A stretch of DNA of 64,000 nt from Escherichia coli. Its GTDB lineage: Bacteria; Pseudomonadota; Gammaproteobacteria; Enterobacterales; Enterobacteriaceae. Shown one piece after another: positions 58,177-59,520 of this stretch (positions are counted from its first letter, which is position 1; every line of letters starts with the position of its first letter). The notes under the pieces were generated by a model. It saw only the letters and a program-made list of their open reading frames with translations, did no database searches and was not told the origin of the DNA. The stretch is taken from assembly GCF_044647545.1 (NCBI RefSeq), contig NZ_CP172818.1; one strand, 5' to 3'. Both the position numbers and the translations under genes were made by a program.

Positions 58177-59520
58177 ATGGCGAACAGCATCACGGCGGAT
58201 GAGATTCGGGAACAGTTTTCGCAGGCAATGTCAGCCATGTACCAGCAAGAAGTTCCGCAGTACGGCACGCTGCTGGAACTGGTAGCTGATGTGAATCTGG
58301 CTGTGCTGGAAAACAATCCTCAACTGCACGAAAAAATGGTAAATGCAGACGAGCTGGCGCGACTGAATGTTGAACGTCATGGGGCGATTCGTGTTGGGAC
58401 TGCACAAGAGCTTGCTACTCTTCGGCGGATGTTTGCCATTATGGGGATGTACCCGGTGAGCTATTACGATCTCTCGCAGGCGGGAGTGCCGGTACATTCC
58501 ACAGCATTTCGGCCCATTGATGATGCTTCTCTGGCGCGTAATCCATTCCGCATTTTTACCTCATTACTCCGCCTTGAGCTTATCGAGAACGAATTTTTGC
58601 GCCAGAAAGCGGCGGAGATTCTGCGTCAGCGCGATATCTTCACCCCACGTTGTCGACAACTGTTAGAGGAATATGAGCAGCGGGGCGGTTTTAACGAAAC
58701 ACAGGCACAGGAGTTTGTGCAGGAAGCCCTGGAAACGTTTCGTTGGCACCAGTCAGCAACGGTAGATGAAGAAACCTATCGCGCCTTGCACAACGAACAT
58801 CGGTTGATTGCTGATGTGGTCTGTTTTCCTGGATGCCATATCAACCACCTGACGCCACGTACGCTGGATATTGACCGGGTGCAGTCGATGATGCCTGAAT
58901 GCGGGATTGAACCCAAAATTCTGATCGAAGGGCCGCCGCGCCGCGAGGTACCTATTTTACTACGCCAGACCAGCTTTAAAGCACTGGAAGAGACGGTGTT
59001 GTTTGCAGGGCAGAAACAGGGTACGCATACCGCGCGCTTTGGTGAAATAGAGCAGCGTGGTGTGGCATTAACGCCGAAAGGGCGACAACTGTATGATGAT
59101 CTTCTGCGTAACGCTGGAACCGGGCAGGATAATCTCACTCACCAAATGCATTTACAGGAAACCTTCCGCACTTTTCCTGACAGTGAGTTTTTAATGCGTC
59201 AGCAAGGGTTGGCATGGTTCCGGTACCGTCTGACGCCTTCAGGTGAGGCGCATCGTCAGGCGATTCATTCCGGAGACGATCCACAGCCCTTAATTGAACG
59301 TGGTTGGGTAGTGGCGCAACCCATTACCTATGAAGATTTCTTGCCTGTTAGCGCGGCGGGGATCTTCCAGTCAAATCTGGGTAATGAAACGCAGGCACGC
59401 AGTCACGGTAATGCCAGTCGCGAAGCATTTGAGCAGGCGTTGGGCTGCCCGGTTTTGGATGAGTTCCAGCTTTATCAGGAAGCGGAAGAACGCAGTAAAC
59501 GTCGCTGTGGTTTGCTTTAA
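58177..59520 (+). CDS. ydcJ: DUF1338-family protein (HglS-like 2-oxoadipate dioxygenase/decarboxylase homologue), 447 aa
   Basis: Intact 447-aa ORF MANSITADEIREQFSQAMSAMYQQE. Confidence 0.85.
   Translation: MANSITADEIREQFSQAMSAMYQQEVPQYGTLLELVADVNLAVLENNPQLHEKMVNADELARLNVERHGAIRVGTAQELATLRRMFAIMGMYPVSYYDLSQAGVPVHSTAFRPIDDASLARNPFRIFTSLLRLELIENEFLRQKAAEILRQRDIFTPRCRQLLEEYEQRGGFNETQAQEFVQEALETFRWHQSATVDEETYRALHNEHRLIADVVCFPGCHINHLTPRTLDIDRVQSMMPECGIEPKILIEGPPRREVPILLRQTSFKALEETVLFAGQKQGTHTARFGEIEQRGVALTPKGRQLYDDLLRNAGTGQDNLTHQMHLQETFRTFPDSEFLMRQQGLAWFRYRLTPSGEAHRQAIHSGDDPQPLIERGWVVAQPITYEDFLPVSAAGIFQSNLGNETQARSHGNASREAFEQALGCPVLDEFQLYQEAEERSKRRCGLL

What the first reader, a model, noticed from the sequence alone, without database searches (positions are those of the whole stretch)
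58177..59520. ydcJ, a DUF1338 (HglS-like) enzyme adjacent to the LysR regulator ydcI
DUF1338 proteins were only recently assigned as 2-oxoadipate dioxygenase/decarboxylases producing D-2-hydroxyglutarate. E. coli lacks the lysine-catabolic context of that pathway, so the native substrate of YdcJ and whether divergently encoded YdcI regulates it remain open.
Basis: established knowledge. Interest (0 to 1): 0.3.

Follow-up and report, generated by a model that had tools for sequence, protein, structure and literature searches.

The report
Known E. coli enzyme gene hglS (ydcJ)
This is the well-conserved E. coli gene for an iron enzyme that turns 2-oxoadipate into D-2-hydroxyglutarate; its activity is already published, so the finding is ordinary, although relatives suggest the neighbouring regulator YdcI originally belonged to an aromatic-acid pathway that E. 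coli has lost.

Summary
**Observation:** confirmed. Window 58177-59520 (+) is a 447-aa ORF, ydcJ, which RefSeq now names hglS. It lies 216 bp from the divergently transcribed ydcI.

**Enzyme:** it passes every sequence test for HglS, and all six active-site residues are intact. It is under strong purifying selection (dN/dS 0.03-0.06) and is present in 5417 of 5426 complete E. coli genomes.

**Already published:** Thompson et al. 2020 showed that purified E. coli YdcJ converts 2-oxoadipate to 2-hydroxyglutarate. Only the source of 2-oxoadipate in vivo and the gene's regulation remain open.

**New context from 80 related loci:**
- The ydcI-hglS pairing is confined to Enterobacterales.
- YdcI is PcaQ-like, scoring 288 bits against a cutoff of 304.
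- In several genera pcaHG or a PcaK-like transporter lies between ydcI and hglS. A PcaQ-type box (ATAAC-N5-GTTAT) lies in the spacer in 17 relatives. Escherichia has lost both.
- hglS carries its own conserved upstream element, which does not depend on ydcI.
- In most relatives hglS is followed by a carboxylesterase that E. coli lacks.

**Verdict:** a known gene. Direct control by YdcI in E. coli is doubtful but untested.

The parts
58177..59520 (+). hglS (ydcJ) coding sequence, 447 aa: Fe(II)-dependent 2-oxoadipate dioxygenase/decarboxylase (D-2-hydroxyglutarate synthase)
   Evidence: ORF. PF07063 full length, E=4e-161. NF049974 741.9 bits against a cutoff of 550. Differs at about 6 of 447 residues from PDB 2rjb; 59% identical to P. 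putida HglS 6w1g. RefSeq names it hglS. H68, R72, H224, E290, V391 and S392 are conserved.
57037..57960 (-). ydcI, a 307-aa LysR-type regulator transcribed divergently from hglS; PcaQ-like
   Evidence: HTH_1 plus LysR_substrate domains. TIGR02424 PcaQ 287.7 bits over 296 of 300 model positions, cutoff 303.8, with no other family close. RefSeq start at 57960.
57961..58176 (.). ydcI-hglS spacer (216 bp), AT-rich, holding divergent promoters
   Evidence: Sequence. Five promoter-like sites against 1.9 expected. Genomic SELEX with RpoD holoenzyme placed divergent promoters and an H-NS mark here (PMC3946193).
57989..58016 (+). Predicted sigma-70 promoter pointing at hglS (CTGACA-16-TATGAT), inside the ydcI-proximal conserved block
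   Evidence: Consensus scan, 10 of 12 matches. The same hexamers are listed for ydcJ in PMC3946193. Conserved only in loci where ydcI abuts the spacer.
58096..58115 (+). hglS-proximal conserved element: invariant GATCACA (58096-58102) followed by TTTGTAAATTCT; binding factor unknown
   Evidence: Conserved in all Enterobacterales loci aligned, whatever the upstream gene (ydcI, pcaH, pyrophosphatase or PcaK-like). It is present in Erwinia L035, whose locus lacks ydcI.
58140..58146 (+). CTACACT, a candidate sigma-S-type -10 element of the hglS-proximal promoter (inferred)
   Evidence: Nearly invariant CTACACT about 31-37 nt upstream of the ATG. It matches the sigma-S -10 pattern KCTAYRCT as I recall it from memory. 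ydcJ rose 3.64-fold at a growth-phase transition in O157:H7 (PMC2241611).
58145..58167 (+). Inverted repeat CTCCAG/CTGGAG whose 3' arm covers the Shine-Dalgarno GGAGG (58164-58168); status as an RNA hairpin is inconclusive
   Evidence: Arms found. Cells paired 72% against 62.8% in shuffles (0 of 500 reach it), but a +1 slide gives equal covariation. Fold z-score 0.30.

Best explanation
**What it is.** The ORF is hglS (ydcJ). It is a functional, stand-alone gene for an Fe(II)- and O2-dependent enzyme of the vicinal-oxygen-chelate fold.

**How the enzyme works.**
- His68, His224 and a glutamate hold the iron. The glutamate is E290 by alignment to HglS; E292 is equally conserved.
- Arg72 clamps the distal carboxylate of 2-oxoadipate.
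- The Val391/Ser392 loop closes over the substrate.
- The enzyme removes C1 as CO2 and hydroxylates the new C2, giving D-2-hydroxyglutarate.
- The D-2-HG dehydrogenase YdiJ, encoded outside the window, can return this product to 2-oxoglutarate.

**How solid each part is.**
- Shown in print: E. coli YdcJ converts 2-oxoadipate to 2-HG in vitro.
- Shown here: the sequence features, the purifying selection and the genomic context.
- Inferred: the gene is driven mainly by its own conserved promoter region (GATCACA element plus a sigma-S-like CTACACT -10) and is induced on entry to stationary phase.
- Inferred: its role in E. coli is to salvage or detoxify 2-oxoadipate made by transamination of 2-aminoadipate taken up from outside or derived from oxidised lysine. 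It is not part of a dedicated lysine pathway.
- Inferred: the neighbour YdcI is a PcaQ-type regulator that belonged to a protocatechuate module (pcaHG or a PcaK-like transporter, with an ATAAC-N5-GTTAT box). Escherichia has lost that module and the box, so the tight ydcI-hglS adjacency in E. coli is largely what was left behind. It is weak evidence for direct control.
For: **Enzyme identity**
- Full-length PF07063 match and a pass on the HglS equivalog model.
- 59% identity to crystallised HglS and about 99% to 2RJB.
- The substrate contacts named in PMC7286885 (R74, V402, S403) map to R72, V391 and S392.
- H68 and H224 are invariant, E290 is 47/48 and R72 is 45/48 in 48 diverse homologues.
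- The six-residue signature HRHEVS is intact in 79 of 80 loci.
- Published activity of E. coli YdcJ. 2RJB superposes on HglS over 408 residues at 1.3 A rmsd.
- E. coli YdiJ is a D-2-HG dehydrogenase (PMC9504171).

**Gene is maintained**
- dN/dS 0.035-0.057; present in 5417 of 5426 genomes.

**Own control region**
- The GATCACA...CTACACT block is conserved in every Enterobacterales locus regardless of the upstream gene, including Erwinia, whose locus lacks ydcI.
- 3.64-fold induction at a growth-phase transition and a CsrB/C effect.

**YdcI as a PcaQ-type regulator**
- 283-299 bits on TIGR02424 over the full model.
- pcaH and pcaG (365 and 265 bits) lie between ydcI and hglS in 5 loci. A PcaK-like MFS transporter lies directly upstream of hglS in 5 Erwiniaceae loci, between ydcI and hglS in four of them; Erwinia L035 lacks ydcI.
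- The published PcaQ consensus is ATAAC-N5-GTTAT (PMC3572157). It occurs 122-141 nt upstream of the hglS ATG in 14 loci, in the ydcI/PcaK-like spacer in two Pantoea loci, and at -247 in a 59%-identity homologue. In the Escherichia spacer the best match has 3 mismatches.
- Gao et al. describe the E. coli YdcI motif as AT-rich inverted repeats 7 nt apart, which fits ATAA-N7-TTAT. The targets they discuss are gltA, nhaA, dtpA, lldP and gltP, not ydcJ.
- A YdcI orthologue is present in 33 of 34 Enterobacterales loci and in none of 46 loci elsewhere.
Against: - No in vivo phenotype or flux through HglS is known in E. coli, and no source of 2-oxoadipate is established there (PMC7286885 discussion).
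- The metal-ligand numbers are from my memory. The paper's accessible text does not print them, and E290 and E292 cannot be told apart by sequence.
- The sigma-S reading rests on a remembered consensus and one array study. No transcription start site is available.
- Arguments for YdcI control remain. ydcI and ydcJ rise together at a growth-phase transition in O157:H7 (3.35- and 3.64-fold). The box keeps a fixed distance from hglS in many genera. hglS also acquired a divergent LysR of another subfamily in Rhizobium, Ralstonia and Comamonas, so LysR control of hglS is common.
- I could not read Gao et al.'s supplementary peak list.
- YdcI falls just below the PcaQ cutoff, so it is not a certified PcaQ.
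Confidence: 0.72

Rival explanations
1. Classical divergent LysR pair: YdcI binds the 216-bp spacer in E. coli and directly activates or represses hglS in response to a ligand such as 2-oxoadipate, 2-aminoadipate or D-2-HG.
For: - The divergent arrangement, or close proximity, is kept in 33 of 34 Enterobacterales loci.
- A PcaQ-type box lies at a constant 122-141 nt from the hglS ATG in 14 loci, including loci without pcaHG.
- ydcI and ydcJ are induced together at a growth-phase transition.
- An unrelated GcvA-like LysR sits divergently against hglS in 9 alpha-, beta- and gamma-proteobacterial loci, so LysR control of hglS recurs.
- The ydcI-proximal block, with an ATAAC half-site, is kept in E. 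coli.
Against: - The Escherichia spacer has no box with fewer than 3 mismatches, and the segment carrying it in relatives is deleted.
- The YdcI targets discussed from ChIP-exo do not include ydcJ.
- YdcI's closest family senses carboxymuconate-type ligands, and it travels with pca genes.
- The hglS-proximal element persists without ydcI in Erwinia.
- No YdcI orthologue lies beside hglS outside Enterobacterales.
Confidence: 0.28
2. The native substrate in Enterobacterales is not 2-oxoadipate but another 2-oxo-dicarboxylate. It would be linked to the aromatic or ester catabolism suggested by the neighbours (carboxylesterase, PcaK-like transporter, pcaHG), and the 2-oxoadipate activity would be a side reaction.
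For: - E. coli has no known route to 2-oxoadipate.
- hglS is joined (42-46 bp gap) to a type-B carboxylesterase in 16 loci and in a 59%-identity homologue.
- pca genes and a PcaQ box share its upstream region in many genera.
- The fold is shared with enzymes that act on aromatic 2-oxoacids (HPPD and HMS).
Against: - All substrate-contact residues of HglS are conserved.
- HglS was active only on 2-oxoadipate in a panel of 2-oxoacids, and R74 sets that specificity.
- E. coli YdcJ makes 2-HG from 2-oxoadipate.
- More than 99% of bacterial homologues that keep the metal triad also keep the arginine.
Confidence: 0.1
3. hglS in E. coli is a decaying relic with no present function, left over after loss of its pathway partners.
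For: The E. coli locus is the minimal version. It has no esterase, aminotransferase, binding protein, pca genes or box, and no phenotype is reported.
Against: - dN/dS of 0.035-0.057 equals that of opgD and ydcI.
- The ORF is intact and all catalytic residues are kept.
- It is present in 5417 of 5426 genomes.
- The protein is active in vitro.
- It is regulated in expression studies.
Confidence: 0.03

Closest known systems
HglS (PP_5260) of Pseudomonas putida KT2440, PDB 6W1G/6W1H: 2-oxoadipate dioxygenase/decarboxylase
   Same: 59% identical over 441 aligned residues, with the same length class. R74, V402 and S403 and the two histidines and glutamate are conserved. The same reaction is reported for the E. 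coli protein.
   Different: In P. putida the gene lies near D-lysine genes (amaA, amaB), is induced by lysine and 2-aminoadipate, and is required for growth on lysine. In E. coli there is no such context, no known 2-oxoadipate source and no phenotype.
YdcJ (SF1787) of Shigella flexneri, PDB 2RJB, deposited as 'uncharacterized protein'
   Same: About 6 differences in 447 residues, so effectively the same protein with a solved structure. It was used as the molecular-replacement model for HglS and superposes at 1.3 A over 408 residues.
   Different: It is only an allelic or species variant, and its deposit carries no functional annotation.
Plant DUF1338 proteins FLO7 (rice) and AT1G07040 (Arabidopsis)
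   Same: Same fold, His-His-Glu triad, specificity arginine and 2-oxoadipate to 2-HG reaction.
   Different: About 15% identity to HglS. They are organelle-targeted, lack the V402/S403-type loop contacts, and have an established role in lysine catabolism and seed phenotype.
PcaQ, the LysR-type activator of pca (protocatechuate) genes in Agrobacterium, Sinorhizobium and Burkholderia (comparison for the neighbour YdcI)
   Same: YdcI aligns to the PcaQ model over 296 of 300 positions at 288 bits. Orthologues lie next to pcaHG or a PcaK-like gene, with an ATAAC-N5-GTTAT box identical to the published PcaQ consensus.
   Different: YdcI scores below the curated cutoff of 303.8. E. coli has no pca genes or box at the locus. 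The published E. coli YdcI roles are gltA repression and pH homeostasis.
Hydroxymandelate synthase (HMS) and 4-hydroxyphenylpyruvate dioxygenase (HPPD)
   Same: Mechanistic analogues. They are Fe(II) enzymes of the vicinal-oxygen-chelate fold with a 2-His-1-Glu site that couple oxidative decarboxylation of a 2-oxoacid to hydroxylation.
   Different: No detectable sequence similarity in the searches here. Their substrates are aromatic, whereas HglS uses an arginine to select a C6 dicarboxylate.

Membership tests
HglS / DUF1338 (Pfam PF07063; NCBIfam NF049974 equivalog) | Full-length match to the family models above the curated cutoffs | tested here: met
   PF07063 at 537 bits against a cutoff of 25, covering profile positions 1-386 of 386. 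NF049974 at 741.9 bits against a cutoff of 550.
HglS / DUF1338 (Pfam PF07063; NCBIfam NF049974 equivalog) | His-His-Glu metal-binding triad | tested here: met
   H68 and H224 are invariant and E290 is 47/48 in 48 homologues of 35-58% identity. They align with H70, H226 and E294 of HglS. Those ligand numbers are from memory. E292 is equally conserved, so sequence alone does not show which glutamate binds the metal.
HglS / DUF1338 (Pfam PF07063; NCBIfam NF049974 equivalog) | Specificity arginine (HglS R74) and the substrate loop (V402, S403) | tested here: met
   R72, V391 and S392 align with R74, V402 and S403. R72 is 45/48 and S392 is 44/48 in the family alignment. The HRHEVS signature is present in 79 of 80 loci.
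HglS / DUF1338 (Pfam PF07063; NCBIfam NF049974 equivalog) | Fe(II)/O2-dependent conversion of 2-oxoadipate to D-2-hydroxyglutarate | not testable with these tools
   Published for E. coli YdcJ: 2-oxoadipate to 2-HG by LC-MS in triplicate (PMC7286885 main text and Supplementary Fig. 5). Metal dependence, stereochemistry and kinetics were measured only for the P. putida enzyme.
HglS / DUF1338 (Pfam PF07063; NCBIfam NF049974 equivalog) | Vicinal-oxygen-chelate fold | tested here: met
   Tested by sequence only. The protein differs at about 6 of 447 residues from the crystallised chain 2rjb_A, which the HglS authors superposed on HglS at 1.3 A over 408 residues. No model was built here.
Bacterial D-lysine / 2-aminoadipate catabolic cluster (amaA, amaB, 2-aminoadipate aminotransferase, hglS, ydiJ) | hglS encoded next to pathway partners | tested here: not met
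   In the window hglS is flanked by ydcI and opgD. Partners do occur beside hglS in non-enterobacterial loci: a YdiJ-like dehydrogenase in 7, an aldehyde dehydrogenase in 9, a DAO oxidase in 7 and a class-III aminotransferase in 7.
PcaQ (TIGR02424 equivalog), considered for the neighbour YdcI | Score at or above the curated cutoff of 303.8 bits | tested here: not met
   E. coli YdcI scores 287.7 bits. Orthologues score 282.7-299.4 bits, highest in the pcaHG-linked loci. All cover model positions 1-296 of 300, and no other family has an E-value below 1e-40 except one weak second hit.
PcaQ (TIGR02424 equivalog), considered for the neighbour YdcI | Encoded beside pca structural genes, with an ATAAC-N5-GTTAT operator in the shared control region | tested here: not met
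   Not met in the window: there are no pca genes, and the best spacer match has 3 mismatches. Met in relatives: pcaHG in 5 loci, a PcaK-like gene in 5, and the box in 17 loci. The consensus is taken from PMC3572157.
Divergent LysR regulator / target-gene pair | Conserved divergent adjacency plus a regulator binding site in the shared spacer | tested here: inconclusive
   Adjacency or proximity holds in 33 of 34 Enterobacterales loci but in none of 46 others. It is interrupted by 1.25-1.75 kb of other genes in 13 of the 33 loci. The box is present in many genera and absent in Escherichia. No binding or expression data for ydcJ could be read.

The most novel reading that the evidence does not exclude
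In the ancestor of Enterobacterales, hglS and its joined carboxylesterase shared one control region with protocatechuate genes (pcaHG or a PcaK-like transporter). That region carried a PcaQ-type box and was read by YdcI. Enterobacterial HglS would then originally have served catabolism of an aromatic or hydroaromatic compound or its ester, not lysine breakdown. E. coli would keep only two orphans. One is an HglS now running from its own stationary-phase promoter. The other is a PcaQ-type sensor rewired to gltA and pH homeostasis, perhaps still sensing a carboxymuconate-like tricarboxylate.
Probability: 0.15. Interest if true: 0.5.

Novelty: already known. Interest (0 to 1): 0.22.

Why it matters
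**The feature as flagged.** It matters little. The gene, fold, catalytic residues and in vitro reaction of E. coli YdcJ are published, and RefSeq already names it hglS.

**What stays worthwhile.** E. coli keeps under strong selection an enzyme whose substrate it has no known way to make, and whose product, D-2-hydroxyglutarate, is a regulatory metabolite and oncometabolite. Finding the source of 2-oxoadipate would close a gap in the E. coli metabolic map. Candidates are dietary or host 2-aminoadipate, oxidised lysine residues, or underground metabolism.

**The side result.** YdcI is repeatedly hit in long-term starvation and acetate evolution experiments and has no known ligand. Here it looks like a PcaQ-type regulator stripped of its pca genes. 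That gives a concrete list of ligands and an operator (ATAAC-N5-GTTAT) to test.

Tried and rejected
1. The search for homologous proteins was saturated by near-identical E. coli entries and gave no diversity. I replaced it with the library clustered at 50% identity.
2. CRP site at GATCACA: the right half fits the CRP consensus, but the left half (TGTGA) is absent and unconserved in the alignment. Rejected. By eye there is also no TyrR, CpxR or IHF site.
3. The box-like sequence inside ydcI (57602-57616, 1 mismatch) varies freely at synonymous positions outside Escherichia, and two or more such matches per window occur in 49 of 100 shuffles. It is chance.
4. The hairpin over the Shine-Dalgarno sequence has pairing above shuffles, but a +1 slide covaries as well, and the fold z-score is 0.30. 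If transcription starts near 58153, the 5' arm is not in the mRNA. Left as inconclusive.
5. An Rfam scan of 56900-61900 gave only a chance hit inside opgD (Entero_OriR, E=0.46).
6. The metal-triad residue numbers could not be found in the paper's main text or held supplements.
7. The supplementary YdcI peak list of Gao et al. and the Salmonella ydcI paper (PMC3133089) are not held.
8. A search for papers mentioning both ydcI and pcaQ found none. A search for hglS found nothing newer on E. coli physiology.
9. The PQQ dehydrogenase next to ydcI in some genera could not be resolved as glucose- or quinate-specific.
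Full report
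**1. Observation**

The window holds an ATG-initiated ORF of 447 aa at exactly 58177..59520 on the + strand.
- It matches Pfam PF07063 (HGLS, formerly DUF1338) over the whole profile (E=4e-161).
- It passes NCBI's HglS equivalog model (741.9 bits against a cutoff of 550).
- It differs at about six residues from PDB 2rjb (Shigella YdcJ, deposited as 'uncharacterized protein'). It aligns to P. putida hydroxyglutarate synthase 6w1g at E=9e-158.
- RefSeq annotates the same coordinates as hglS, between ydcI and opgD. The 2.8-kb segment is found in 5417 of 5426 complete E. coli genomes.
- The LysR neighbour is real. The mechanical ORF reaches 58101, but the annotated 307-aa ydcI is 57037..57960 (-), which leaves a 216-bp spacer.

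**2. What is already known**

- Thompson et al. 2019 showed that P. putida PP_5260 is an Fe(II) enzyme converting 2-oxoadipate (2OA) to D-2-hydroxyglutarate.
- Thompson et al. 2020 solved HglS. [quoted passage not shown]
- They also purified the E. coli homologue: 'the E. coli homolog YdcJ ... catalyzed the conversion of 2OA' to 2HG. Supplementary Fig. 5 shows LC-MS assays in triplicate.
- They note that 2RJB has the same fold, metal motif and arginine. They leave open 'whether ... [quoted passage not shown]
- The D-2-HG dehydrogenase of E. coli is YdiJ (PMC9504171).

I found nothing newer on E. coli HglS physiology.

**3. Catalytic residues, checked here**

- A global alignment with the HglS sequence gives 59% identity. 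It maps R74, V402 and S403 to R72, V391 and S392, all identical.
- In an alignment of 48 full-length homologues at 35-58% identity, H68 and H224 are invariant. E290 and E292 are each 47/48, R72 is 45/48 and S392 is 44/48.
- H68, H224 and E290 align with the HglS residues I recall as the metal ligands (H70, H226, E294). The numbers are not printed in the accessible text, so that assignment is from memory. E290 and E292 cannot be separated by sequence.
- Across 80 loci from different species, the six-residue signature HRHEVS is intact in 79. The exception is V to I.
- dN/dS against Escherichia, Citrobacter and Enterobacter orthologues is 0.035-0.057, the same as for opgD and ydcI.

The gene is functional and maintained.

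**4. Context across species**

A scan of one genome per species returned 80 hglS loci. By title, identity and synteny, 34 are Enterobacterales (L001-L033 and L035). The other 46 are Halomonadaceae, Rhizobiales, Burkholderiales, Xanthomonadales, Pseudomonas and others.

Outside Enterobacterales:
- The three genes on each side of hglS include a roughly 1040-aa FAD/Fe-S dehydrogenase of the YdiJ type (7 loci, directly adjacent), an aldehyde dehydrogenase (9), a DAO-type oxidase (7) and a class-III aminotransferase (7). This is the expected lysine/2-aminoadipate setting.
- No YdcI orthologue is present.
- A GcvA-like LysR sits divergently against hglS in 9 loci.

Inside Enterobacterales:
- A YdcI orthologue (65-97% identical) lies upstream on the opposite strand in 33 of 34 loci.
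- The spacing differs between genera. It is 216-380 bp in Escherichia, Enterobacter, Kosakonia and others, and about 1255 bp in four Citrobacter loci, where a Mn-dependent pyrophosphatase intervenes.
- It is about 1750 bp in Pseudocitrobacter, strain RIT691, Cedecea sulfonylureivorans and Kluyvera. There pcaH and pcaG (365 and 265 bits on their equivalog models) lie on the ydcI strand.
- It is about 1725 bp in Pantoea and Mixta. There a PcaK-like aromatic-acid:H+ symporter lies on the hglS strand.
- Erwinia mallotivora keeps PcaK-like followed by hglS but has no ydcI in the locus.
- Downstream, 21 of 34 loci carry a roughly 502-aa type-B carboxylesterase. In 16 of them it starts about 42-70 bp after the hglS stop. 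Many then carry a GcvA-like LysR, a YbdL-like aminotransferase (747 bits) and an ArgT-like binding protein before opgD.
- A homologue only 59% identical to E. coli HglS, from a metagenome contig, shows the same order: ydcI orthologue (73%), hglS, esterase after 42 bp, then opgD further on.
- The 64-kb window has no match to any of these accessory genes.

E. coli therefore carries the minimal version of the locus.

**5. YdcI is PcaQ-like**

- E. coli YdcI scores 287.7 bits on the PcaQ equivalog model over 296 of its 300 positions, against a cutoff of 303.8. Orthologues score 283-299 bits, highest where pcaHG are adjacent. No other family comes near.
- The published PcaQ operator consensus is ATAAC-N5-GTTAT (PMC3572157). 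With at most one mismatch, this dyad lies 122-141 nt upstream of the hglS ATG in 14 loci, whether the gene on the other side is pcaH or ydcI.
- It also lies at -169 in Siccibacter, in the ydcI/PcaK-like spacer in two Pantoea loci, and at -247 (perfect match) in the 59%-identity homologue.
- It is absent from Escherichia, Citrobacter, the E. cloacae group and a few others. The best match in the window's spacer has three mismatches, and the alignment shows the box-bearing segment deleted.
- By chance, such a match is expected 1.7 times per 64 kb.
[quoted passage not shown] The targets they discuss are gltA, nhaA, dtpA, lldP and gltP, not ydcJ. Their peak table is not held.
- ydcI is among the top vanillin-induced genes and is induced by all volatile organic compounds tested. 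That is weakly in line with an aromatic-responsive regulator.
- No paper in the library links ydcI with pcaQ.

Because the box and block A occur in Erwiniaceae, in the distant homologue and in many Enterobacteriaceae, parsimony favours loss in Escherichia over repeated gain. This is an inference.

**6. hglS has its own control region**

- The 90 nt before the hglS ATG are conserved in every Enterobacterales locus whatever lies upstream. The pattern is an invariant GATCACA (58096-58102), then TTYGTAAATTCT, a variable stretch, CTACACT (58140-58146), and the Shine-Dalgarno GGAGG (58164-58168).
- CTACACT fits the sigma-S-type -10 pattern KCTAYRCT, which I recall from memory. ydcJ rose 3.64-fold and ydcI 3.35-fold at a growth-phase transition in O157:H7.
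- ydcJ is named among the genes most affected by removing CsrB and CsrC.
- Genomic SELEX placed divergent sigma-70 promoters and an H-NS mark in the spacer. The predicted ydcJ promoter CTGACA-16-TATGAT corresponds to 57989-58016.
- I could not name the factor that reads GATCACA. It is not a CRP site, because the left half is missing and unconserved.
- The CTCCAG/CTGGAG inverted repeat over the Shine-Dalgarno sequence is not convincingly an RNA structure.

**7. How it most likely works**

Shown:
- The protein has every sequence hallmark of HglS, is under purifying selection, and converts 2OA to 2-HG in vitro (published).

Inferred from the HglS work:
- Fe(II) is held by two histidines and a glutamate, and O2 is the co-substrate.
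- C1 is lost as CO2 and the neighbouring carbon is hydroxylated to give the D isomer.
- YdiJ returns the product to 2-oxoglutarate.

Inferred here:
- In E. coli the gene runs from its own stationary-phase-type promoter. It serves to clear 2OA formed by unspecific transamination of 2-aminoadipate, which may be taken up or derived from oxidised lysine. It is not part of a dedicated pathway.
- Direct control by YdcI in E. coli is possible but not favoured (about 0.3). In genera that keep the box about 130 nt from hglS it is more plausible.

**8. Comparison, novelty and verdict**

- The feature is a member of the HglS family by every testable criterion. It is not a member of a lysine-catabolic cluster (context tested and not met).
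- YdcI works like PcaQ by sequence, operator and neighbourhood in relatives. It fails the curated PcaQ cutoff, and E. coli lacks the pca genes and the box, so I do not file it as PcaQ.
- The flagged finding is already known, so its interest is low.
- The most novel reading still allowed is that ancestral enterobacterial hglS-esterase was co-regulated with protocatechuate genes by YdcI, and that E. coli retains two rewired orphans. I give that about 0.15.

Noticed in passing
L005 8387-9895, L013 8363-9892, L082 7377-8897 and 13 other loci; absent from the window between 59521 and 59744: A roughly 502-aa type-B carboxylesterase (PF00135, 337 bits) starts about 42-70 bp after the hglS stop on the same strand in 16 Enterobacterales loci and in a 59%-identity homologue. 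It lies further downstream in Pantoea and Mixta. Escherichia, most Citrobacter and a few others lack it. The reason for the pairing is unknown.
   Followed up: partly
L007 5428-6821, L010 5407-6827, L021 5397-6754, L022 5416-6773 (minus strand); L029 5599-6933, L031, L032, L033, L035 (plus strand): pcaH and pcaG, or a PcaK-like aromatic-acid transporter, lie between ydcI and hglS in ten loci. An ATAAC-N5-GTTAT box identical to the published PcaQ consensus lies in the shared spacer. I found no paper linking ydcI to pcaQ.
   Followed up: yes
window 58096-58115: An invariant GATCACA followed by TTYGTAAATTCT lies about 75 nt upstream of hglS in all Enterobacterales loci, independent of the upstream gene. 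In Pantoea it is a palindrome, ATCAC-N6-GTGAT. The binding factor is not identified.
   Followed up: partly
L011 9882-14275, L013 9879-12809, L029 12115-15122, L035 11590-14590: A block made of a GcvA-like LysR (minus strand), a YbdL-like aminotransferase (NF009079, 747 bits) and an ArgT-like Lys/Arg/Orn binding protein lies between the hglS-esterase pair and opgD in about 14 loci. An aminotransferase next to hglS could supply 2-oxoadipate from 2-aminoadipate. E. coli lacks the block at this locus.
   Followed up: partly
L007 1662-4091, L022 518-2893, L011 3127-5571: A membrane-bound PQQ dehydrogenase of the glucose/quinate/shikimate family (TIGR03074, over 1070 bits) lies just beyond ydcI in several genera. 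If it is quinate-specific, it would feed protocatechuate to pcaHG. The model cannot tell glucose from quinate.
   Followed up: partly
L001 (titled Escherichia coli strain SCPM-O-B-8794), whole locus: Its hglS, ydcI and opgD differ from the window by dS of about 0.67-0.77, about as much as E. albertii does (0.79-0.92). The genome is probably a cryptic Escherichia lineage and not E. coli in the strict sense.
   Followed up: no
L006 8422-9444 (Kosakonia cowanii): In place of the esterase, a 340-aa ORF with an Anthrax_toxA (PF03497, 82 bits) domain follows hglS.
   Followed up: no
window about 54.8-55.0 kb (L081 289-484): The RefSeq annotation of an identical strain places the hokB type I toxin gene and the small ORF yncP just upstream of trg.
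   Followed up: no
window 57000-59800 as the query: Five of the 5427 matching places for the ydcI-hglS segment in complete E. coli assemblies are on plasmids, and some genomes hold two copies.
   Followed up: no
L063-L069, L073, L076, L037, about 5900-6880 (minus strand): In Rhizobium, Ralstonia, Comamonas, Aureimonas and one Vreelandella, a GcvA-subfamily LysR (260-285 bits on NF008352) is transcribed divergently about 120 bp from hglS. hglS has therefore acquired LysR neighbours of two different subfamilies in different lineages.
   Followed up: partly
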